A stretch of DNA of 64,000 bases, from the NCBI GenBank assembly GCA_964270895.1, contig OZ185439.1; one strand, 5' to 3'. A model generated the notes under the pieces. That model saw only the letters and a program-made list of their open reading frames with translations, had not been told where the DNA came from and did not search any database. The position numbers and the translations under genes were made by a program. The DNA is from Podarcis filfolensis (lineage: Eukaryota). Below, piece after piece: positions 15,201 through 54,200 of the stretch; position 1 is the stretch's first letter, and every line of letters starts with the position of its first letter.

Positions 15201-18200
15201 AAATATATGCAACTTGTCTTTCCTGAATTTTTGAAGCAGTAGTATAATATTAGTCCTACAGTACCTTACAGACAAAGCTATTGGCTTACAAGGATAATTT
15301 GCCCCTCTAAATTGATATATAAGTCAGAAATTGGACTAACGTGGCAGGAAAAAACCATAATGGCACTGCACATACCCTTTTTTATGTAGAAAAGTTTGCA
15401 AATACATTACATCCTGACTGGACTGTTCAGTTTTTGAGTGAAGTTTTGCATTAGTTTTATTGTGCACATGGAATACGTTAAGCTGTAGGACCTCCCACAA
15501 AAATTTAAATATTAGAGAATGGGGGGGGGAGACTAAGCTTCACTATGTGAGGTTAATAATGCTGTAAAAGGGAGATAATTTTTTTAAGTGACTATGCTGG
15601 ACAAAGAATAAAGTGAGTACAAGTACAATTTAATGTATATTAATCCAAGGTAGTGATTGCTGTTACTATCCGGTCTCTGCATTGGGCTAATCCATTATTA
15701 CAGTACACTGTGAATGAAAAGATTAAAGCCTCGGCACAGACAAGGGAAGAAATACTTCAACAACCCTGTGTGTCTTACAGTGTAAGAGATCACAAGGGTC
15801 TAGTGCTATGATGTGATTATGTTCCAAAAACGAACTATTTCTAACACAGAGATTGCATGACCCCCTGCTTTCTTACATTCAGTTACAAAAATACACTTAT
15901 TCCCATCTGCGTATATGCTGACTACTCTAGCATTGCTTACATAGAACATCAACATTAGTAATGTTAGTAAAATGCTGGTTCTTTGAGTTGCCTTTTAGCA
16001 GCTGTGAATTGGCAGCTAGCACCATTGGGACCAGCTGATTGTTCCATAGCCCCACCATGTCTCAGTTGACCACAACATCCAAATCTTTATAATCAGGCAC
16101 AAAACCATTTTTTAGATTTGGGAGAAATAAGAGAGAGTTTCTTAGAAAATACTCTATGATTTGGTAACAAATCTTAACATCCACACTAGTATATGCATAT
16201 AAATATGTTTATCCACGTTCAAGAGCTAAAAAACGCCAGGCTCTTCATAACCACAAGTCAGTATTAAAGTAAAGTATTGATACCTATGCAATGTTTTCTG
16301 AGAAGAGCCTTTTAATTATCCTTGAACATACAAGTATTTAGTGATTTTGATGATGCTCTTCCTTGGTTTTGAGTGCAGAGTAGTTAGTGCCCTTAGCTAA
16401 ACAAATGTGAAGAAGCCATAAACGTGGTCCTCTGGACCATTTAAAAACTTGGTTCATTTTAATTTTTTTAAAAAAAACAACAACCATTAGTTCTTGTAAT
16501 TGGTTCTGGTAATAATCATGATTCAACTTGGCATAGAGCCTTATGTTCAATGTCTCATAATTATATTCATGTTTGTACAATTATTTTACACAGTCATGCA
16601 TTTTATCTCTGTTTTTATTAACTGAATGGTTATTTTGGAAAGAAACTGCAATAAATGTGGGAAGCAGTGGATCTTTCTGATGACAGGAGTAATTAGATTT
16701 TGACTTGCAACAAGGCAGAGATATGAGGTGTTGATTATCCTTGAGAGGAGAATTGCAAATAGAGATCGATGAATTCCTGTTGTCTGCTAAATTTATTGCA
16801 TGTTTCTCCGTATGAAAATAGTTCCAATATAGAATATTTAAGTCTAATACATGTAAAAATTCTTGCCATTCACTTTCATCACGAAAGTGCCTACGGGTGT
16901 TGAACTTGTTCTTAGCTGCTGGAACAAAGCTTCAGCAAATGCTTGTGATTTTCCTTAATAAACAAGCACAGCAGGATTGCAACTTCATTGCCACAGAAAA
17001 TACTAGCAACATTCTTCATAGCATGTTTAGACATCAGCATATTCTGTTGTAACTGTATAGCACGAGAGGACTGATTCAACAAATCTGAAGGATCTTGGCC
17101 TTTTCAGGTGAATTTTTTCTTAGTTCTACTACAATGCCACAGTGTTTACCTTAATGTCATTTAATTAGAATTTTGACAAGCTGTCTGAGTCTGGAAGTCT
17201 CTTGTTTCAGGGTCAGTGCAGTTTTAATCATAGTCTAGTGAATTCAGCAGGTAGCAGTTCTGTTTTCCCATAATTTGTGCAGTGTTTCTTGTCCCTGACT
17301 CTGTTTTTGTGCAGTTACTCCAGTGGCTCATCCAGTTACATGGATGCTATGCTCTTTATTCTGTGAACTGTTCTGAAGTCAAAGATATTGAGAGAACAAA
17401 AAGAGCACAATAAAATAGAGAGGAAAGTGAAAACATTGGTGTGGTAGTCTAATCCAATTGTTGAAAACGAAAACAAGCTGGCATCACATTCAAAGTCTAT
17501 TCAGTCAGATGAGTCTCACAGATCTGGAAGCTGTCAATGTGCTGCCCATTGATGCGGATCTCCATGTCAGTCCTCTTTGAACTTTTAGAGTCTGCAGCTG
17601 GAAGTTCTGGGATTGTCTTGTCAAAATTCTCCATCTTGATCTGATATTCCCCTTTAGCACCTCGAACCAACATGGAGGCAAAATGGTGGTGTAATATGAT
17701 CTCTGATGGAAGATAGGATGTCCTCCTCTGGCATGTTTCTCCAGTGCCCTCTTGTGTGGCAGAAAGGAAGACTACTAGCTCAAAATGTTGATGAGCCTCC
17801 CTTTGCAGGAGAATGGCTAGAGGGCTAGATGGAGTTATGGGATGATAATAGGTTAAAGGAAAGATAAAGAAAGGGCACTCTTCTGAAGTGATGCTGTCTA
17901 GATGGAAATCCACACTGGTTTGATGCAACTGACCATTTTCTTGTTCTTCATAAAGAACTGCAGAAATCCGAACACTGGTGAGTGGGCTTGGGCGAGTATT
18001 GGCCACTTGGAACATTAGATATGGCTTTCCTTCTTTGTGTGTCACTACAGCAGAATAGGTGAACCGGATGGAGAGAGCTCGATTCTTTGGACGGGCAATT
18101 TTTGCTACAAATGCACCTAAATAAAAAGAGAATTTACATATAGATTGTGCGTGTAATTATAGTTTCCTAATTCCCTTTATAGTATATTGAAAGGAAACAC

Positions 18201-21200
18201 AATTAAAGCAAGTTGCACTGTATTAGGTTCACAATATTTATTATTAGCATAAGTATTTCACATTTTTAATGATGTTCCCACATTCTTCAGGTCCATCACA
18301 TTAATTTCCTAAACCACAAAAATACTTTTTATAGTAAATATTTTTTAAATCAGGTGTTCATTAAAATATTTTCCACCATCTTTGTGAACTTGAATAATGA
18401 CATATGCTTTTGACAAAATAAGACCCACAGTCTCTGCTTTCTGATTTAGCATTTCAGGCTAATTGTCTGCTAAGTAATCTCTTAGTAGGTTTATTTTGTT
18501 ATAAGCTTCATTTATTATATAGCAAATTTTATTTCAGTAACATAGAACAGTTTTATTTATTAACTCATTTAAAATTATTTTCAATAAAACATAGCAGGGT
18601 TTGAAAATTCTCTGATAGTCATTGATAACTTGTCAGTAAAAAGTCTTTGCTGCAGTCCTAAGCATACTTATGGAAATACTGCATTGAACTATGTAAATGT
18701 TCATTTCTTGGTTAAGCTGCTAAGGATTCATCTGTTAGCTTTAAACTATGCAAATGTGTATGGGCAGTTAATTCTACTAACTAATCACACTTTTTAAAAT
18801 AATGTAAAAAAAGGTTTCTGAACTAAAGCATGCATTTGGGAAGAACTGAACCACCTATTTAGATGTTTAGTACAAGTTGCTGTTTAATAATTCTTTTCAT
18901 ACTGTAAAATGGAAATACATCCTCATCAAAGAACAGTATTTCTCAGAATGCTGAGTGACATAGCCCTATCCTTGCTTTCTTGCTGTAGCTTTATGACAAA
19001 GCTCTTATTTAAACTATAACATAAAAGCACTAGGTTATGAAATTGTATGTAATTACCTGTGATGAAGGCCTCCAGCATCAGACCCAGTACCATTTGTATA
19101 GCAAGTAGGGCAATTGCACTTGGACAGTCTCCACTTGGGAACATTGTGCCGTAACCAATAGTGAGCTGTGTCTCCAGTGAGAAAGAAAAAGCAGCTGTAA
19201 AGCTTGTGATATACTTTACACAAATAGTGTGGTTTTCAGGTGGAGAATCATGATCGATCTCCAGATCCCCATTCATTTCTGCTAGTAGGTACCAGAGAAC
19301 TGCAAAGACAAGCCAGTGGAGGACAAAAGAAGCAGAAAATACCAGCATCATCCATCTCCAGCGCATATCCATAAGGATTCCCCAAGCATCTTTTAGGTAT
19401 GCCAGGCCTTTCCCGTGGGCACCATCCATTTGTAGTGTGCTGTGTCCATCTTTTGTGACCATTCTTGGGTATCGTTGGGCCAGGAGAGGAGCACTAGGTT
19501 TGGTGTTGTTGCCTTCTATCACTTCTGTCCTCATCTTCTGAAAATGAAAAGAAACAAAACTGTTGGATGCTTGTTTATCTGTAGTTCAGATGATGTTCAG
19601 AGATTCTGACACATTGGCAGTGGACCAGACGCTACCTGCAGCTAGCCAAGGGGGTCTTTAAACATGCAGTTCTGAGAAAAGTAACTTTGGAGAGCCAGGT
19701 TTGCCACTGCTTCCATTGTACGATAATGATTACCTACAAAAATTAATGTTGGATCCTTCTTTGATGATAATTTAGAAACGTAAGCCAAACTTTTTGACTT
19801 CTCAGGTTTATTTGTGGGTCTAGTGGTTAGTTTGATAGTGAAGGAGTACTGCAAGTCTTACTTTTCTGAAATTCAGAGGTGTGTTCTGTAACTTTAGCAA
19901 ATATGTGTTTAATATTTAAGCAAAGCACACTATCAAAGCTATTATTAATATTATAAATGTTCTATATATTCCTTTGGTGGCCATCTGAAGGCTGTCATAT
20001 CAAATATAATAAATTAAAATTTCCTCATTATAAGCTCTTGTGGGATTTTCTACCTAAATATGTTTACTGCTACGAACCATGATATTTTTATTGTCTAGAA
20101 TTGTGGTACCTGGGATATAGCCTCTTCTGCTGAACATACTCAGGCCAGTGCTGTTGTAAAGCTGTATTAAAAAGGGGATAGAGAATAATACGGAAAATAT
20201 TATGCAATTATATAAGCCGAGAGAAGTCCTGAGGAAAAAAAAATCATCTCTAAACCCAATTTGCCAAAGGGGAAACTGGAGTGAGGCTTTTGTTATGTGT
20301 CCTTAATCATGTTTCTAATACTGTAGTGTGGCAGCTTGGGTTCCTGTGGAGTTACAAATATTGAGTATCTCGGAAAATAAAAGATCAATCCCTGTGCTTT
20401 TTATGAGCTTTTCTCTTATAGCAGAAAAAGCTCACAGCTTTAAAATTAACAAACATAAAAGAAAGCAAAATATTCAATCATGGTGTCTCCCTATTTGATA
20501 GAGACTGGTTGAAATGAAAAATGTGAGAGAAAGGATGCTGGCATATTTGAAAAGAGAGATTAAACTGGGGTAACTGCTGAATGACATAGTCACAGAGCAG
20601 CAGATCTGATCTAATATTGATGGTAAAATGAAACATATTTGGTCCATCTTGTTGCACAATCATTGTGTGTTGTTTGTTTCTCTCTGAATGGGATCCAGAT
20701 ATCTTATTTCAAAATAACAACTTCTGGTGGGGGGCTATCACATTTTCCAAATACTTAGACATTAGTATTCCCCTTCAGGAAAAATGCGAAAATGATTGCA
20801 TTGTAATTTGATACATGCTTACTACAGGCATAGTTATGATAATAAATTTGATTGAAATATATTCTTTACAAATGTGTAGGGTGGCTTCCTTGGGGTGGGG
20901 TGTATTAAACTGCTTTGAGATTAATTATAATCAAGCTATATAAAAAATGTGTTAAATAAAAAACACACAAATTAGTCATGGGCCAGTCATCAAAAGTAGT
21001 TGCACTGTTTTATAGTACTACAGCACCTAAGATATTTACAATCAGTCAGTTTTGACAAAATGTGGAGTAGAGTTCACTGATTGTGCAGAGCTAATCAGAT
21101 GCTTATCTCCTGCATATGTTGTACTTGGCAACTCTGTTTTTGCTGTTTTGCTAAGCTTGCACATGAGTCATTATAATGGTTTTTATTGTTATGTTCCATG

Positions 21201-39200: not shown

Positions 39201-42200
39201 TTTATATAGGAGCCCCTCAGTGTAAAAATGGCAAATGAAAAATGAGTGAAAATGCAGACTGAAAAAGACTCTGAACATAGATTCTGAAAATGACTCCAGA
39301 AACAATTCTTCGTTTTCCAGTAGTTTGAATGTTGCTTAAACATGTTGCAAGAAACTTGAATTTCCAAAGACCAATAATTTCTTGTAAAATTCCAACCACG
39401 ATGTATACAGACATCATTACAATTATTACAATTAATCTATTAACCACCATCTCAAGGTGATTTACACGTAAAATAATGAAAAGCAGTTAAACACAAAAGC
39501 AACAGAGACATTTCAAACAAGACTAAAACCCCAACAAGCAGACACTTTTGATAAAGATTCATTTATCAATCTGGGAAAGCCTGTTGGAATGAAAATGTCC
39601 TCAGCTGTTTACAGAAGCTGACCATCCTTGCTGCTTACCAGATAATAAGACTTGCTTCCCGGCAAGCAGTTCTGCCAAGCTTTATTATCTTTTTGCATAA
39701 TTATTTAAACTTACCTTTTCATTCCTTTGTCTGAGTCCACCAACCATGATGGTATTATTCATAAGGCTTTCTGCTGAATTTCACCTTATTCCACTGACGG
39801 TGTGTAACCTGGCAGTAGTAACCTCAGTCGTTCTTAATGTCCCCCCCCTCCTCTTGCTGCAGCAAGCAGAAAAAATGGTGGCGTATTTGCAGGACAGTGC
39901 CCTGGATGATGAAAGGCTAGCAGCCAAACTTCAGGAGCAGAGAGTAAAGGGTACTTCAGTACCATTACTCCATGAGGCCATGCAAAAGTGGTTCTACAAA
40001 GATCCACAGGGAGAAATTCAGGGTAAGCTTTCATCCTTACCGCTTTTTATTTTTATTTCACTGGAATGTTGTTTTTTAGTTATATGTGCACTAAAAAAGG
40101 GTGAGACATAAATAAAAGAAAAAGAAACACCACCCATGTAGAAGGCAAAGTAAAGGGGGGGAGGGAGGGAAATCCATGTATACTGTATACTTTACAAAGT
40201 TGTTATTGCACTCCATCAGATATTAACCTATTACAGTATTTGTAAGAATGGATTCCAAATATCATTGAATCTGTCCATGGCAAGTCTGCGTTTGTATGCA
40301 AGTTGTTCATATGTTGCGAGTTTGTATAAGTCTTCCATCCAATCGTAGAAGGGAGCCGCATTTTTATTTTTCTAATTCATCAGTCTTAGTCTTTTTGCTG
40401 TGGTAAGGGCACGGAGAATCCACTCATATTGTCCCTTTGTAAGGTTCTATGTGCTGGGTATATAATTCAAAGGGATATTTTGCTCTGTAAATGTAAGGTT
40501 GTTCCATATAGTTCTGTTGATAGTTTCAGTTACCGTATTTTTCGCCCTATAGGACGCACTTTTCCCCCTCCAAAAATGAAGGGGAAATGTGTGTGCGTCC
40601 TATGGGGCGAATGCAGGCTTTCGCTGAAGCCTGGAGAGCGAGAGGGGTTGGTGCGCACCGACCCCTCTCGCTCTCCAGGCTTCAGGAAGCTCTGCGCAAC
40701 CCTCGGGAGACCGGCTCCGATGGCCGCGCAGAGCTGCCTGCAGTCCCGGGCTCAGCACAGCTATGCGCGGCCATCGCCAGCCCCACAAGCTCGGGGGACA
40801 GCAGGGAGGCGGAGTGCGCCTTCCCGCTGTTCCCCGACCTGGTTCTTCCAGCCCCGCACCTGGGGGGGAAATAATTTTTTCCCCTTTATTTCCCTCCCCC
40901 CCCCAAAAAAAAATCTAGGTGCGTCCTATGGGGCGCAAAATACGGTACCTTCTGTCAAAAATCTTTCAGTATAGGACAATGAAAAAACATGTTTTAGAGA
41001 AGCATTATCCCTGTTGCATCTCCAACAGTTAGCTACCTTAGATAGCCCTTTTTTAAACAAGCGTAATGGGGTCCAGTATATTCTAAATATTATTTTTTGT
41101 TTTTTGAGCCTCAGTTTAAGGTCCAGAGACACCCTTGTTATAGCACTTAACACAGATTCCCACTGTGGGGTCGAAGTTGAGATCTCTAATTCTTTTTTCC
41201 ATTTCTCCCTCAGTACCTGTATATCAAATTGGTTTGCTAGTGACATATATTTATATATGTTGATGGCCGGGTTTTTTTGTTGTGTAAGAATTAATCACTT
41301 GCTTCAATATCTCTGGGGTCTCTCTGGCTGTAAAAGCTGCTGGTCCGTAGATGGTGGTTAGCAAGTTTTTTTCTGCAGATATTGCCATTGAGCATTTGTA
41401 GGTAATCTGTATTTGTCTCTTAAGACAGAATATGTGTAAAATTCATCCTCTTTGTTTATCAGCTGTTCGAACATTAATATACCCAAATTCATCCACCTCT
41501 TCCATACAACTATTTCTTTCCCAATTTTTAAAGACAGGTTTCCCCACAAAGTCATTTGTTGTGGAAGAAAAGGTCAAATTTATATTTTCTGGACATGTGG
41601 TGCCATATCATTCGAACTAATCTTATTGTTTCAATAGCATCTTGAGTATTAATGTATTTAGACCCAAGTGCTACCCATCTTTCTAAAGGTGCTACATAGG
41701 AATATTCCAAAGAAGCCCAATTTGGACAGTTGTTTTTAGTTATGGGTCTCCAGAATTGTCTACCTGACAGTGAATATGCTTGGTGATACAATTCTAAGTC
41801 AGGGATCCCAAATCCTCCTCCTTTTATTGGTATTTGCATTTTTTGCATAGATATTCTTGTAACTGAAGAGCCCCAAAGGCATTTTCTAAACAAAGATTTA
41901 ATTTTATGAAAGTATTTGCTTGGTATGTAAATTGGAATTCCTCTTAAGGTATAAACTAGTCTGGTATTATGTTCATTTTATTTCACTGAAATATTAAGGG
42001 AAATTACAATACACTGCCTATGTACTTAGGGTGGCATCAGAAAATGTCTAGCTCTATAAGTAAGATCAAGACACATACGGCACATACTTAGAGCAGTCCC
42101 CCAGATACCAGGCTCTATATGGGCTGTGACTGTTGGGTGCAACACTCAGTAGAGGTTTCACTCTTGTCTTCATGGATTTCATCCCTTGATGATTTTGCAG

Positions 42201-48200: not shown

Positions 48201-51200
48201 ATGAGCCATTATTAGCTCAAACAGCTTTCATGGCTGCTCTGGGGCATTTTCTAAAGCTATATTTTATCAAATTGTTGTGTTCTAGCACAGGTTGCATTCT
48301 TAGAAGCAAAGGATTCTTTGCAATCCTATGTATCTTGAAACAAACAAAAAGGAAGCATTTTAATCTAGGTTAGTCCACTTTAGAGACTCTTCATATTTTT
48401 TCTGTTCTGGGAAGGAAGAGGAGGCTGCCAAATGGGCACGTGAAGAAGCAGAGGCAAAGCGTCAGCTAGAAGAAAACCGGCTGCGCATGGAAGAAGAAGC
48501 AGCCCGACAGAGGCATGAAGAGGAAGAACGAAAACGTAAAGAGCTGGAACTCCAACGCCAGAAAGAAATTATGAGGCAGAGGCAGCAGCAGCAGGAGGCT
48601 TTGCGCCGATTGCAGCAGCAGCAACAGCAGCAGCAACTTGCACAGATGAAGGTACTGATTCTTCGTAATGTTACTCTTTTTCTCATTGCCACAAACCCAC
48701 TCTCACAAGTTATGCTCACAGCCCAAGCCAGCAGAGAAGCTCTCTGTTAGCTGTGCTGAAATTTACATGACCATTGCCAGAACCTGCCTTTTAACGCTCT
48801 TGGAATTGAGCACCAGAAGCAGGAGATGGGCAGCTCTAACTTCAATCAGTGGCATCCCAGTTTGTCCAGGTTATCTCTTTACTGCTCAGTGTACCTCATT
48901 GTACACTGCTTAGATATTTCAGTGCTAAGTGATATTTAAGTTGTTGAAATCAATAATAAATAACTAAAACATGAAAGTAGCATAGATATGCAAATCTCTC
49001 TAATTTACAGAAAAATTAAGATTTCCTTGACACATATCATAATTCCTGCCCCCCCCGCCCTGCTCAGGGTGTGCATTTCTGTCCATACCTATAGATCTGA
49101 GAAAGTACAATGAGGAGCAACTTGCCACCCTACCAAAAATGTATATAGGTGCACATATCCTGAGTAATGCCTCATTTTTAAGCTAAACCCTTCCAGAGTG
49201 CTACCTGGAACTATCCTTCACCAAGGATTGCCTGACTACTGTAGTCCATGTTGCATTCTTGAGGCTGGATTACAGTTGTACCTCGGGTTAAGTACTGAAT
49301 TCGTTCCGGAGGTCCATTCTTAACCTGAAACTGTTCTTAACCTGAAGCACCACTTAACTAATGGAGCCTCCTGCTGCTGCTGCTGCGCCGCCGGAGCACG
49401 ATTTCTGTTCTCATCCTGAAGCAAAGTTCTTAACCTATTCCTGGGTTAACGGGGTCTGTAACCTGAAGCGTATGTAACCCAAGGTACCACTGTACAGCAA
49501 TGCTCTCTATGTGGGACTGCCCTTGGTTGTGCTCCAGAAGCTTCAGCTGGTATAGAATGCAGTGGCCAGACTGTTGGTGGGGGCAAATAGCCCACAACAT
49601 GTGACACCATTGTTAAAACATCTGCATTAGCTGCCCATCTACTACTGAGCCAGGTTTAAGGTCCTTTTGTTAATTTACAAGCCCCAAACAACTTAGGTCT
49701 GGGGTACCTTAGCAACTGCCTGAACTTTTATATCTCAGCTCATTCACTGAGACCATTAGCAGGAGTGTTGCTGGTTGTCCACTGAACTGAAGACAACTCA
49801 GCTATCAGTGACTTGACATCATAATGGCACCGGATGATTTAAAGCTGGGTGCCCCTTGTCCCGCTGCCAGAGTTGACCAGCAGGGGTGGGGAAAATAATG
49901 TTCTGGTTCATTGGGTAAAAAGGTTCTCCGCTCCTGATTTAGAGCATAAAACTGGGAGTAGAGAAACCTGGATTCAAGTCATTACACTGTCATGAAACTC
50001 ACTGGATAAACTTGGGCCAGTCTAATCTGTTTCACCAGGTAGGTGTGAAGCTAAAATGAAGTCAGTACCATGTACACAAGTCCTGGGAGGATGAGCCGTG
50101 TAAAAATAGAGGCTGAAGCTGTTGGTTTTGAATGGCATGGGTCTCTGCATCAGACTTTTAAAAATGCATTTTTCATTGTTTCTCCATGCTACTACTGCCT
50201 TCTTCCCTCAGCTGTTTTCTTTGCTTCATTTCCTTTCCTTTGAATAATTCCCATTTCATTCACAGCACAGTCAGGTGCTTGAATCTTACTATTATATTGC
50301 TATAGAAATTATGACTATTGTTGGTACTATAAAGATTAATTGGAGGTTGGGTACACACCTGGCAGGAAAAGGTTGCAGTTCTACAGTACAAGGAGACAAA
50401 ATAAAGATTGTGGCATATTAGCAGCTTTTGTGGCAGACAATAACAACTGTTTGCATGTTTTTGAGTGGCTGATTCAGCATATATCCTGATGTATTCACTC
50501 TTTCCATTAAGAAAATTTAAGTGCTGTTTCTTGTATGTCTTTCTTCCCAGCTCCCTTCTTCTTCAACATGGGGTCAGCAATCAAATTCTAGGGCATGTCA
50601 GTCCCAAACAACGTTATCATTAGCAGAAATCCAGAAGCTTGAAGAAGAGAGAGAGCGGCAGCTTCGAGAAGAGGTAAAATTCATAGTTTGGAAAAGAGGC
50701 TTTAGGTTGCTGCTGAAATAGAATAGTCAAATTTCCTTGCCATTACACCTTTATGAAAGACATATTCTTTCACCTATTGTGAAAGATATATTCATCTGGT
50801 GAACTCCCACTACGTTCTGCCTTTAGACAGCCCATGGCTTGCTCATTTGTGTGCAGTTGTGGCTTGTCACTGCTAGGAGTCACTGTGACAATTTCTAAAC
50901 ACTTAATAAGCTTAACCCAAGATACCTAGGAGGCTTTACACAGCTCATTCTCACCTCCCTTCATGGAACACAGCAGTTAAACCTTGAAGTTGCCAATTAA
51001 GCATAGTTTCCTGTATCATCTGAGCTGCGAAACTAGTTACCAGTTTTAGAACAAAGCAGGCTCTGAAGCCAACTTCAAAGCATTGTTAAAATCCTAGTTG
51101 GTTTTGAACCTGGTAACTGTGGGAATTCCGGGTTAGCGCCATCGGCGAATGGCGGAGTTCCTCCGATCGGGGGAGCGGGCTCTGTGGAAATTGGGTCTGC

Positions 51201-54200
51201 CCACCGCGGCGAAGGTGGGGACCCGCTAGAAATCCCAGGCGGAGGGAGCCTGGGAATGTGGGGTTCGGCAGAGCACCAGGAGCGCCTCCCCTACTCGCGG
51301 GGAACCACAACTTGGGGCTCCGGAGCGAAGTGGGGTGAGCAGCGCGGTGCTGCGAACTGATTGCTATTTTCACGGAGGGAAGCCGCACAGCCATCGCCGG
51401 AGAGCGCTGACTTTTTCCTGTTGACAATTGGACTCTAAACAAGTACCCGTGAGTAAAAACGGAAAATTGGATCAAGAAATACTTGAATTAGGCTCCGAAG
51501 CGGGAAGGTTCAAAACAGGAAGTCTGCCTCCCGCTTTTTGTAAATAGACTGAAGCAAAAACCTTACAATCTAATAGCCTGGAAAGTTGTTTTAAAGGTTG
51601 GAATTTCCTGCATTTACAACTAACAAAACCCCCTTGGAAGCAGGTGAAAAGGGGGGGTGGAATCTGACTGTTTAAGCCTGCAGGAAGGGAGTAAAGGAAA
51701 ATAAGTTTCCATCGTCTCAAACCTGGGAACGGGGTGTCAGGACAGAAATTGCCGGAGACGTCCATTGATTGTACGTGGAACATTTTGACAGATAGTTAAA
51801 AAAGAGAACCAAACTGACTTCAATGCTGCCTTCTGCATTTTAAAGAAACAAAGTATTTGAAAATTGAAAATTGAAAGTAACTTTATTTTGTTGGACATGT
51901 TTTAAAAAGATGGATACAAATAGAAATTGTGTCCCCTAGAGGGAGCTTGTCAATTTGTTGCTGCAGTTTACTTGGAGACCTCACAGCTGCGAGATTGGGA
52001 TCGTGGGACCAGCTGTTTGACCTTGAATAGAAATGTGTGGGGAGGAAGTTTTGGTGTCTGCTTTTTGCAAGACAAATGCTTTGCTGGAGCAGTTGCATGA
52101 GAAGACGGGTTTGATGAAGGAGAAGTTGGACTTGATGACTGCTGTAGCCAGTGAATATGGATTAACAGGAAACATAGAAATTATGCAGCGACCAACTCAG
52201 GAAATTGGTTCGACCGGGCAAGTGCAAGGGCAGATGAAGATGGAGGAGGCTGCGATCGCACCCCAAGCAACACAAATGGAGAGATCCGAAGCCCTGCAGG
52301 AGCACAAGCCGCTGTTTTGGAAGATTGAATTTGGAGTGGGCCTGGGAGAGCCTGGAGTTAAGGAGGCTCTTAACTTTGGGGGGACTTGGAAATATGCTGA
52401 CAACTATTTTTTGGATAGTTACTTTTTGGATTACAATGATGATGGCGGGGAGTGGGACTGTGGGGAATGGGCTAGTCTGATGAAGAAAGATGGATATAAC
52501 TATCGGTTGGAATCCCCCAGAGACCTACTCCTCAAGGAGAAAGGGAAGAAATTAAGAAAGAAACCAACGAAAGATAAGGAAAAGTGTAAGCATAAACAAG
52601 AAGAAGAAAATCTGCAGAAGAGGCATAGAAGAGACTTAAGGGCCTCGGACATAAGATCACCAGGTTGATGGACTGGATGGAATGGACAGTAAGGACTGAC
52701 ATAACCCGAGACCAGGAAGAAGGGACGTTGGATAAAATTTTTTTAAAAAAGCCTATAAAAGGAAAATTTTCTTTTTATTTTTGGAATTAGTGTAAAACTA
52801 ATGAAATATTAGGGAAAATGTTGGAATGGAATTATCTGGCTTTAGTAGAAAGGATATAAGGAGTTATGTATAAATATGTTTTAAATTTTGAACATTAAGG
52901 TTTTCTTTTTATGGTAAGACAAGGTTAAATCAAGGTAAATTGAATAACAGAATATGTCAAAAGATGGAAAGGACTTGTTGAGTTAACTAATAGGTTAGAC
53001 TATCTAAATAAGAATTGAGAAAGACGGAAAGAATTTGCTGAAACAACGAATTAAATTAGAACACAAAAAGGGAGGTGTGAGGAGGTCAAAGAATTAAGCA
53101 GATGAAAAGATGTAATATGGGATTTGTCTTTTTTTCTTTTTTTCTTTTTGTTTGTTTGTTTGTTGTGATGTATTTGTTCCTTTTTTTTCTTATTTTTTGT
53201 CCTTTTTTGTACTTTTGAAACTCTGAATAAATATCATTTTAAAAAAATATGAACCTGGTAACTGTGATTTCCCAGTGATGAAGTAGAAATTGTGCTTAAT
53301 TGAATATTTTCTGAGTATAACTGCTGTGCGCTACAAAGGGAGAAGAAGGGAGAGCACAAGCAGGCAAAAAGCTTCCACATGTCTCATTTTAATAAACCCA
53401 AGTTATAATTGCCCAAATATTATCATAGTCTTAGATTATCAAGACTGAAAGTGCAGAGATTTTCATAAGCTAGCCTCTTTCTTTTTTTGCAGATTTGCCT
53501 GGTTTAATGATACAATGTTAAAGACATAGAATTGTGGTTAATATAAATGCTAATTCTACTGATTCTCTTTAAATGTAAAGCCTAAAATTAGATTCATTGC
53601 CCATCTAGTTTTAGTTAGGAATTTAAAAATGAGGGGGTGGGTAGAAAAGTAATTTGTTCTATGAGTAATGTTTGCTTGATTGGAAAACAAAGCAGAATAT
53701 GAAAGCATTTGTGTCCAGGTGCACTTTCCAAGACCAGAGGCTTTGATCAGTGTGTCTGAGGCAAATTTCAGTACCCCCAGTGAAACACATACCTATTCAG
53801 ATTTATCGAGCTTTGAGGAAAATGTGTGGGAAACAGTAGAAGATAATCAAGTATGCGTATGCGTTTAAGAACTGGAATGTCCTGCATTGACTGTTTTCCA
53901 GCAAAGGCGTCAGCAGCGTGAACTAATGAAAGCCCTCCAGCAGCAACAGCAACAGCAGCAACAGCAACAAAAACTGGCTGGCTGGGGAAATGTTGCCAAA
54001 CCTGCCGGTACTACAAAATCCCTCTTGGAGATACAGCAGGAGGAGGCAAGGCAGATGCAGAAGCAGCAACAGCAGCAACACCAGCAACAGCAAAGCAGGT
54101 CCCGCAGCAGCACTACAGTGAGTACAGATAATAATAATAATAATAATAATACTCTTGTTGAAGTCAAAACTTTATTTGTATTGCTTTTCCTCTATTGGTG

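What the first reader, a model, noticed from the sequence alone, without database searches (positions are those of the whole stretch)
51105..53266. Apparently complete 2.1-kb non-autonomous L1-like retroelement with an open, unrecognised 211-aa ORF
Seen: a perfect 17-bp TSD (51105-51121 = 53250-53266), a CpG-rich 5' end (~51122-51420), a stop-free ORF at 52033-52668, a T-rich 3' UTR, AATAAA and an A tail. The ORF has an amphipathic N-terminal segment ([20 protein letters not shown]), an aromatic/acidic middle and a K/E-rich basic C-terminus. No RT or endonuclease is visible. A short stretch after the ORF ([13 protein letters not shown]) loosely resembles an L1 ORF2 C-terminus. Known: HAL1-type elements keep only a non-catalytic ORF and are mobilised in trans by L1. 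Inference: this is a young copy (retained CpGs, unmutated TSD) of a parasitic L1-derived family whose protein may be a diverged ORF1 or something new. This is the best candidate here for an undescribed system.
Basis: partly seen in the sequence, partly recalled or inferred. Interest (0 to 1): 0.7.

Follow-up and report, generated by a model that had tools for sequence, protein, structure and literature searches.

The report
Lizard half-L1 with stripped-down ORF1
This is a recent copy of a widespread lizard jumping gene cut down from LINE-1, which has lost its copying enzyme and most of the RNA-binding part of its one remaining protein yet keeps that protein's two ends under selection, likely as a hook for riding on the machinery of intact LINE-1s.

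Summary
The element is a HAL1-type (half-L1) deletion derivative of an L1 family in the same genome. It shares that L1's 5' UTR, ORF2 tail and 3' UTR. Its 211-aa ORF is L1 ORF1p (HHalign 98.8%) without the N-terminal region, about 74 residues of the RRM, and the tail. It belongs to a radiation of at least hundreds of 1.9-2.2 kb copies in two clades with TSDs, A tails and 5' inversions. This copy is absent, with a precise empty site, in 5 of 8 runs laid. The ORF is under relaxed selection (omega about 0.6, L1 ORF1 0.22-0.26). Constraint sits on the first five coiled-coil heptads and the C-terminal part; the middle is neutral. Likely mechanism: ORF2p borrowed in trans, with the mini-ORF1p hooking its own RNA onto L1 particles (untested). 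HAL1 is known from mammals, and this scan noted HAL1-like elements in other genomes. My searches found no lizard or RRM-less HAL1; Repbase and Dfam could not be checked.

The parts
51105..51121 (+). 5' target-site duplication (17 bp)
   Evidence: single copy at the empty site in 5 of 8 runs
51122..52032 (+). L1-derived 5' UTR with CpG-rich start (51122-51420); likely internal Pol II promoter (inferred)
   Evidence: 74% over 628 nt to full-length L1 L073; 70% over element positions 5-907 to L129; CpG o/e 0.89
52033..52668 (+). 211-aa mini-ORF1: starts at the parent's second Met (residue 48), two large in-frame gaps in the RRM, ends early at the deletion junction
   Evidence: HHalign probability 98.8, E 1.2e-16, residues 1-213 vs 48-336; start-region deletion
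52033..52173 (+). first five coiled-coil heptads (residues 1-47), the most constrained part
   Evidence: helix 3-47 is the only part reaching pLDDT 70-82; omega 0.34 vs 37 control windows, minimum 0.43; a/d positions 88% hydrophobic
52330..52395 (+). short remnant of the RRM between 34- and 40-residue gaps (approximate limits)
   Evidence: parent RRM at 175-263 in model
52462..52665 (+). CTD remnant and basic tail (19 K+R in the last 51 residues)
   Evidence: 62% nt to L1 ORF1 3' part; omega 0.42-0.54; composition
52660..52675 (+). ORF1-to-ORF2 deletion junction with short imperfect homology; the ORF's stop codon comes from ORF2 sequence read in another frame
   Evidence: same position in both clades
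52664..52820 (+). non-coding remnant of the L1 ORF2 C-terminus (right limit approximate)
   Evidence: 77% over 69 nt, then 66% over 259 nt running into the 3' UTR
52821..53249 (+). L1-derived 3' UTR, T-rich tract, AATAAA (53226-53231) and short A tail
   Evidence: 73% over 208 nt to L073
53250..53266 (+). 3' target-site duplication (17 bp)

Best explanation
This is a recently inserted, full-length copy of a half-L1 (HAL1-type) retrotransposon, derived by deletion from an L1 family of the same lizard genome, that likely borrows L1's ORF2 enzyme in trans and likely uses its cut-down ORF1 protein to attach its own RNA to L1 particles. Shown: L1 origin of every segment; loss of ORF2; ORF = ORF1p without the N-terminal region, most of the RRM and the tail; multi-copy spread with L1 hallmarks; recent insertion; an open frame with purifying selection on residues 1-40 and the C-terminal part and none on the middle. 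Inferred: transcription from the inherited CpG-rich promoter; translation; ORF2p supplied by co-expressed L1s; and the protein's job, namely that the N-terminal heptads would join L1 ORF1p assemblies while the basic tail would hold the element's RNA. The family's edge over its parent is likely its shortness, which lets complete, promoter-bearing copies form.
For: Parent: L073 is a 6268-bp TSD-flanked L1 sharing 5' UTR, ORF1 3' part, ORF2 tail and 3' UTR with the element; 20 further L1 loci were compared. The parent ORF1 model has a coiled coil-RRM-CTD layout and matches human L1 ORF1p (Foldseek E 3e-8). Family vs parent ORF1: HHalign 98.8%. L1 hallmarks: 71 copies with TSDs of 12-21 bp (30 of 71 are 17-18 bp), T before and A-rich bases after the cut, two 5' inversions. 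Empty site in 5 of 8 runs. Frame kept: 4 of 4 shared ORF indels in frame vs 19 of 99 in the UTRs; 1 shared stop among 289 shared ORF alleles vs 56 of 1832 in 5' UTR pseudo-frames, and that one is a CpG change in three copies on separate branches. Omega 0.61 (18 clade I representatives) and 0.59 (16 clade II), omega = 1 rejected (2dlnL 28 and 42), L1 0.22. Residues 1-40: 0.34 and 0.43, below all 37 and all 30 control windows. Human ORF1p N-terminal heptads are proposed to link trimers into a meshwork (PMC5940361 section 19). [quoted passage not shown]
Against: No evidence of transcription, translation or binding was obtained. The simple shared-vs-private allele test was not significant (p 0.083), and 2 of 17 control frames reached p < 0.05. 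One of three 3' UTR pseudo-frames gave omega 0.61, below the ORF's 0.65. Most copies were picked by similarity to the ORF, which favours low omega and open frames. In human L1 the N-terminal heptads alone are unstructured and need the C-terminal heptads to trimerise (PMC5940361 section 11), and that part is neutral here (omega 0.9-1.06). The human coiled coil without its N-terminus did not form heterodimers with ORF1p (PMC5605252 section 18), and this ORF lacks that N-terminus. In one subfamily 9 of 24 copies are frameshifted at a G run, and a small frameshifted sub-lineage (L188, L189, L193; support 0.82) is not excluded. No exact helper L1 was identified: shared segments are only 62-79% identical.
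Confidence: 0.6

Rival explanations
1. Same HAL1 element, but what is selected is mainly being translated: an open frame loads ribosomes, avoids decay and brings the poly(A) RNA near nascent ORF2p, and the protein is constrained only to be harmless.
For: Frame conservation is the strongest signal. Residues 41-120 are neutral. The RRM and N-terminal region are lost, and clade II has also lost 17 CTD residues. The two clades share only 21-27% identity yet keep 200-224 codons and the same stop. The model is mostly low-confidence (mean pLDDT 44).
Against: Both clades separately keep a 4-3 hydrophobic heptad (88% and 87% at a/d vs 22-23% elsewhere) and low omega on residues 1-40, which mere openness does not predict.
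Confidence: 0.27
2. The ORF is a neutral leftover; the family moves as an RNA parasite through its promoter and A tail, and the frame looks open because copies are young or were picked for it.
For: Omega 0.6 is far above L1's 0.22-0.26. The allele test was not significant. Intact ORFs in only 14 of 23 motif-picked and 12 of 25 DNA-picked copies.
Against: Subfamilies down to 71% nucleotide identity keep the frame and stop. Shared indels are in frame. Constraint is regional against matched controls. The one ORF-less chimera examined is single-copy (1 of 40 listed hits spans its junction).
Confidence: 0.07
3. The element is a spliced L1 transcript retro-inserted once or repeatedly (SpIRE-like), not a self-propagating family.
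For: An AG precedes the ORF2-side breakpoint. Spliced L1 retrocopies exist in humans (PMC5860796, search listing only).
Against: No GT donor at the ORF1-side breakpoint in the L1 copies shown, an extra base at the junction, and short homology instead. Copies form their own deep tree of subfamilies, 62-74% identical to L1, so they descend from each other.
Confidence: 0.03
4. The mini-ORF1p is a dominant-negative that dampens L1 and is kept for the host's or the element's benefit.
For: Truncated human ORF1p with N-terminus and coiled coil suppresses L1 in trans (PMC5605252 abstract and section 18).
Against: That effect needed the N-terminus, which both clades lack. Selection is seen along the mobile lineage, not at a fixed host locus; this copy is absent from relatives.
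Confidence: 0.03

Closest known systems
HAL1 (half-L1) of mammals (Smit 1999; Bao and Jurka 2010, not held; seen through passages of PMC5753468, PMC3627910, PMC2241872, PMC5786205)
   Same: Non-autonomous L1 derivative that encodes only ORF1p, formed by loss of ORF2, keeps the promoter, reaches high copy number and maintains ORF1 coding capacity over time.
   Different: Host is a lacertid lizard (inferred from Podarcis lilfordi relatives at 66% and 59%). The ORF1p lacks the N-terminal region, about 74 RRM residues and the tail, so the published explanation (ORF1p binds its own mRNA strongly; PMC2241872 passage) fits poorly. Two clades with different further deletions, only 21-27% identical in protein. 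I could not read whether any described HAL1 lacks the RRM.
Co-resident autonomous L1 family (L073, L111-L130; ORF1 371-399 aa in unbroken copies)
   Same: 5' start motif, 5' UTR (74%), ORF1 coiled coil and CTD, ORF2 C-terminus, 3' UTR and polyadenylation end.
   Different: About 6.1-6.5 kb, carries endonuclease and RT, ORF1 omega 0.22-0.26 with intact RRM.
HeT-A and Ag-Sponge (ORF1-present bipartite non-autonomous LINEs; PMC5786205 passage)
   Same: ORF1-only elements whose protein is proposed to multimerise with the autonomous partner's.
   Different: Jockey- and CR1-clade origin; nothing here shows target specificity or a host function.

Membership tests
HAL1 (half-L1) | derived from L1 (5' UTR, ORF1, 3' end homologous to an L1) | tested here: met
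HAL1 (half-L1) | encodes ORF1p only; ORF2 deleted | tested here: met
   one ATG-started ORF over 200 aa; only the ORF2 C-terminal remnant remains
HAL1 (half-L1) | multi-copy family that propagates as a unit | tested here: met
   578 exact 5'-motif matches; 27 of 30 best DNA hits reach the 5' end; own subfamily tree
HAL1 (half-L1) | L1-type insertion marks (TSD, A tail, A-rich target, 5' inversions) | tested here: met
   empty site
HAL1 (half-L1) | ORF1 coding capacity maintained, evolving faster than in L1 | tested here: met
   omega 0.59-0.63 vs 0.22-0.26; in-frame shared indels. 'Faster than L1' as a HAL1 trait is recalled from Bao and Jurka 2010, not read here
HAL1 (half-L1) | mobilised in trans by L1 ORF2p, with cis need for its own ORF1p | not testable with these tools
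   needs a retrotransposition assay; insertion marks are indirect support
canonical L1 ORF1p | coiled coil domain | tested here: met
   helix 3-47 and conserved heptads; only the first five heptads are constrained
canonical L1 ORF1p | intact non-canonical RRM | tested here: not met
   34- and 40-residue gaps within the parent's RRM 175-263
canonical L1 ORF1p | folded CTD | tested here: inconclusive
   aligns without gaps at 29-34% identity but pLDDT is below 50; clade II lost 17 residues of it
canonical L1 ORF1p | basic N-terminal region before the coiled coil | tested here: not met
   about 145 nt around the parent's first ATG deleted in clade I; clade II also starts at the coiled coil
autonomous L1 | endonuclease and reverse transcriptase | tested here: not met
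   no Pfam family for the three ORFs scanned; no ORF2 body in the alignment to L073
spliced L1 retrocopy (SpIRE) | GT-AG boundaries at the deletion | tested here: not met
   junction contexts
catalogued Repbase/Dfam family | match to an existing entry | not testable with these tools
   no such library on hand

The most novel reading that the evidence does not exclude
A vertebrate parasite-of-a-parasite radiation in which ORF1p has given up its RNA-recognition domain and become a minimal adaptor: five heptads that dock into the L1 ORF1p meshwork plus a basic tail that carries the parasite's RNA to borrowed ORF2p. Two lineages reached about 210 residues by different deletions, and among copies with the sampled 5' motif they far outnumber the parent L1. 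This would be a natural deletion map of what ORF1p must do in cis.
Probability: 0.35. Interest if true: 0.72.

Novelty: new variant of a known kind. Interest (0 to 1): 0.5.

Why it matters
Why half-L1 elements keep ORF1 at all is explained in print by ORF1p binding its own RNA or multimerising with the partner's protein (passages of PMC2241872, PMC3627910, PMC5786205). This family has lost most of the RRM and the N-terminal region, yet keeps the frame and the first heptads under selection in two clades. That separates the possible jobs (RNA recognition, oligomerisation, being translated) and makes them directly testable with a 2.1-kb construct. Practically, it is an abundant, recently active source of lineage-specific insertions in lacertid genomes, and its ORF is being annotated as a hypothetical host protein.

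Tried and rejected
Pfam: 0 families for the ORF at E up to 10. The parent ORF1 reaches Transposase_22 only at E 0.32, and a genome search with PF02994 found nothing, with no control ringing, so Pfam silence is uninformative. PDB sequence search with the family profile: no hit below E 0.34; with the parent ORF1 profile, only generic trimeric coiled coils. ESM Atlas with homologue P0001: retrotransposon-gag clusters at 0.86, under the 0.9 bar; rejected once L1 ORF1 homology was shown. The AlphaFold model of the ORF (mean pLDDT 44) was too poor for a fold search. Protein database: 2 and 3 hits only. Sequencing runs: no RNA holder listed, which says nothing on expression. Shared-vs-private allele test: not significant and not specific. 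Branch-specific omega was not obtained. The primary HAL1 paper is not held. Searches HAL1+Anolis+retrotranspos (2 papers), half-L1/ORF1/lizard (153 with two of three terms, 20 listed), Podarcis+LINE-1+non-autonomous (4), lacertid+LINE-1+ORF1 (0) and HAL1+squamate+transposable element (1) showed no lizard HAL1 in the listings or passages seen. No supplements were read; repeat libraries in lacertid genome papers' supplements may list this family. A search of earlier findings by sequence and by genome gave nothing.
Full report
OBSERVATION. The element lies at 51122-53249 between exact 17-bp repeats. It has a CpG-rich start (o/e 0.89 vs 0.22 for the window), one 211-aa ORF at 52033-52668, a T-rich 3' part, AATAAA and a short A tail. 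Of 8 public DNA runs laid on the locus, 5 (coded organisms A twice, C, D, F) hold a contig that skips exactly 2145 bases and keeps one repeat copy. Two (organism B, different samples and studies; one may be the source of the assembly) run from the flank into the element, and one had no flank cover. The insertion is therefore real and recent.

FAMILY. The own genome (1.5 Gb) gave 1486 DNA candidates (40 scored, 86-100% identity), 4658 protein candidates (150 scored, 70-100%) and 578 exact matches to a 19-nt 5' motif with 0 in the reversed control. Candidates are not copy numbers. Of the 30 best DNA hits, 27 reach the 5' end and 22 have an intact ORF; copies cut short of the ORF cannot appear in such a search. 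From 109 loci (70, 39; four dropped as duplicates or mis-called), 71 had a TSD of at least 12 bp around a 1.9-2.3 kb element. TSDs run 12-21 bp, 30 of 71 are 17-18 bp, with T before the cut in 35 and A at the next four places in 33, 52, 41 and 47 (the boundary with the A tail is ambiguous). Two copies carry 5' inversions of 635 and 757 nt, a mark of L1-type priming (established knowledge, recalled). The nearest database proteins are two 'hypothetical' Podarcis lilfordi proteins (66%, 59%), so the host is likely a lacertid.

PARENT. Among the first 40 motif matches on contig C1, 30 carry this ORF, 4 a sister ORF, 4 no ORF match (three 5' fragments, one chimera) and 2 are L1s (L110 was fetched in the wrong direction and identified through). 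The motif came from this family, so the ratio is biased. L073 is a 6268-bp L1 with a 17-bp TSD. It matches the element at the 5' UTR (74% over 628 nt), the ORF1 3' part (62% over 217), the ORF2 C-terminus (77% over 69) and the 3' UTR (73% over 208). The parent ORF1 model shows coiled coil 50-172, RRM 175-263 and CTD 267-327 (domain names assigned by me from the secondary structure) and matches human L1 ORF1p structures (E 3e-8). Profile comparison aligns the whole family ORF to parent residues 48-336 (98.8%, E 1.2e-16), with 34- and 40-residue gaps in the RRM. About 145 nt around the parent's first ATG are deleted, so the ORF starts at the second Met. The ORF ends where ORF1 is joined to the end of ORF2 through a short imperfect homology, not GT-AG.

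SECOND CLADE. Searches with two sister ORFs gave 4266 and 2587 candidates. The 50 loci fetched are mostly 1.93-2.13 kb TSD-flanked elements with 209-224 aa ORFs ending at the same motif and junction position. They align to the parent ORF1 (96.8%) and to clade I (98.0%). They share the second RRM gap, keep a degenerate first half of the RRM, and lack 17 CTD residues. Clades I and II group together in the coiled-coil tree (support 0.97) and the 5' UTR tree (0.85, with L1 L130 nested inside). The tail tree, unrooted, does not place them together against L1. One founding deletion followed by radiation is likely but not proven.

SELECTION. Codon models gave omega 0.63 for 57 intact copies and 0.24 for 17 parent ORF1s; omega = 1 was rejected (2dlnL 35.8). 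With one copy or two per subfamily: clade I 0.61, clade II 0.59, L1 0.22. Controls on 75 copies: ORF frame 0.65, its five other frames 0.79-1.54, six 5' UTR frames 0.84-1.12, three 3' UTR frames 0.61-0.83, one of them below the ORF. A shared-vs-private allele test was not significant (p 0.083), and 2 of 17 control frames were. The signal is regional. Clade I 40-codon windows read 0.34, 1.06, 0.89, 0.54 and 0.42, against 37 control windows with median 0.98 and minimum 0.43. Clade II reads 0.43 for codons 1-40 and 0.27 for 181-205, against 30 controls with minimum 0.53. Heptad a/d positions are 88% and 87% hydrophobic vs 22-23% elsewhere. Shared ORF indels are in frame in 4 of 4 cases vs 19 of 99 in the UTRs; private ORF indels in 9 of 15 (minority insertions were not counted). 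Shared stops: 1 of 289 vs 56 of 1832 in 5' UTR pseudo-frames; that one is a CpG change in three copies on separate branches. In one subfamily a G run is a slippage hotspot: 9 of 24 parsed copies are frameshifted there, with several run lengths and mostly next to intact copies on the tree, but a three-copy group of frameshifted copies is not excluded. Most copies were chosen by likeness to the ORF, which biases towards open frames; in the motif-picked set 14 of 23 are intact.

MECHANISM. Shown: L1 ancestry, loss of ORF2, L1-type insertion, spread as a unit, open frame and regional constraint. Inferred: the CpG-rich 5' UTR drives transcription and ORF2p comes from intact L1s. One intact L1 (ORF1 344 aa, ORF2 1246 aa with endonuclease and RT) has inserted inside a family copy. 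Shortness likely helps: 11 of 11 copies of a very young L1 family were 5'-truncated (picked by their 3' end). For the protein I favour a hook role. In human ORF1p the N-terminal heptads can open and are proposed to link trimers into a meshwork (PMC5940361 sections 11 and 19); these are the part kept here, with a basic tail (19 K+R in 51 residues). Against it, those heptads alone are unstructured in human ORF1p, and the human coiled coil without its N-terminus did not heterodimerise with ORF1p (PMC5605252 section 18). Binding is untested. The main rival is selection for translation itself.

KNOWN AND NEW. HAL1 is defined as an ORF1-only L1 derivative that arose several times in mammals (PMC5753468 passages), with long-kept coding capacity in guinea pig (PMC3627910 passage) and about 7500 copies in rat (PMC2241872 passage). 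The element meets every HAL1 feature testable here, so it is filed there. Its protein fails the test for a canonical ORF1p (no intact RRM, no N-terminal region). PMC5381506 passages state that RRM and CTD are very conserved in vertebrate L1s, and that paper does not mention HAL1. The searches named under Tried and rejected showed no lizard HAL1; the primary HAL1 paper, Repbase and Dfam were not available. This scan has noted HAL1-like elements in rays, camelids, octopus and fungi (unchecked notes), none by this sequence or genome. Verdict: new variant of a known kind; HAL1 identity about 0.97, hook mechanism about 0.6 among the readings, interest 0.5.

Noticed in passing
window 17497-19585 (-), 39701-40111 (+), exon near 50600-50672: ORF translations look like KCNJ13 nested in GIGYF2 (names recalled, not from a call); the element lies in sense orientation about 430 nt after a GIGYF2-like exon, with its own polyadenylation signal.
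   Followed up: no
window 41552-41977 (-): Old fragment of an L1-type ORF2, with 150 scored relatives in the genome.
   Followed up: partly
L087:2134-8001 and L206: An L1 with intact ORF1 (344 aa) and ORF2 (1246 aa) and its own TSD inserted into a family copy; a candidate helper for assays.
   Followed up: partly
L088:1257-6325: A copia-type element with a 1342-aa ORF (gag, integrase, RVT_2) inserted into a family copy.
   Followed up: partly
L130:350-830: An L1 whose 5' UTR nests inside clade I of the half-L1s, hinting at promoter exchange between parasite and parent.
   Followed up: partly
L078:201-693: A 493-bp TSD-flanked chimera of a 5' end and the 3' end of a very young L1 family; single-copy among 40 listed hits.
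   Followed up: yes
L207-L217: A very young L1 family (98-99% identical 3' ends); 11 of 11 fetched copies are 5'-truncated.
   Followed up: partly
L181-L205, ORF codon about 100: A G run with at least five lengths among 24 copies, a slippage hotspot.
   Followed up: yes
L095:201-1041: An 841-bp copy with TSD and A tail that ends inside the 5' UTR, likely from premature polyadenylation.
   Followed up: no
G000:C19: Many near-identical L1 ORF1 and clade II hits cluster on contig C19, possibly a repeat-rich or duplicated chromosome.
   Followed up: no
window 52330-52512: Both clades carry tryptophans and acidic residues in the decayed RRM/CTD region that the parent lacks; function unexplained.
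   Followed up: no
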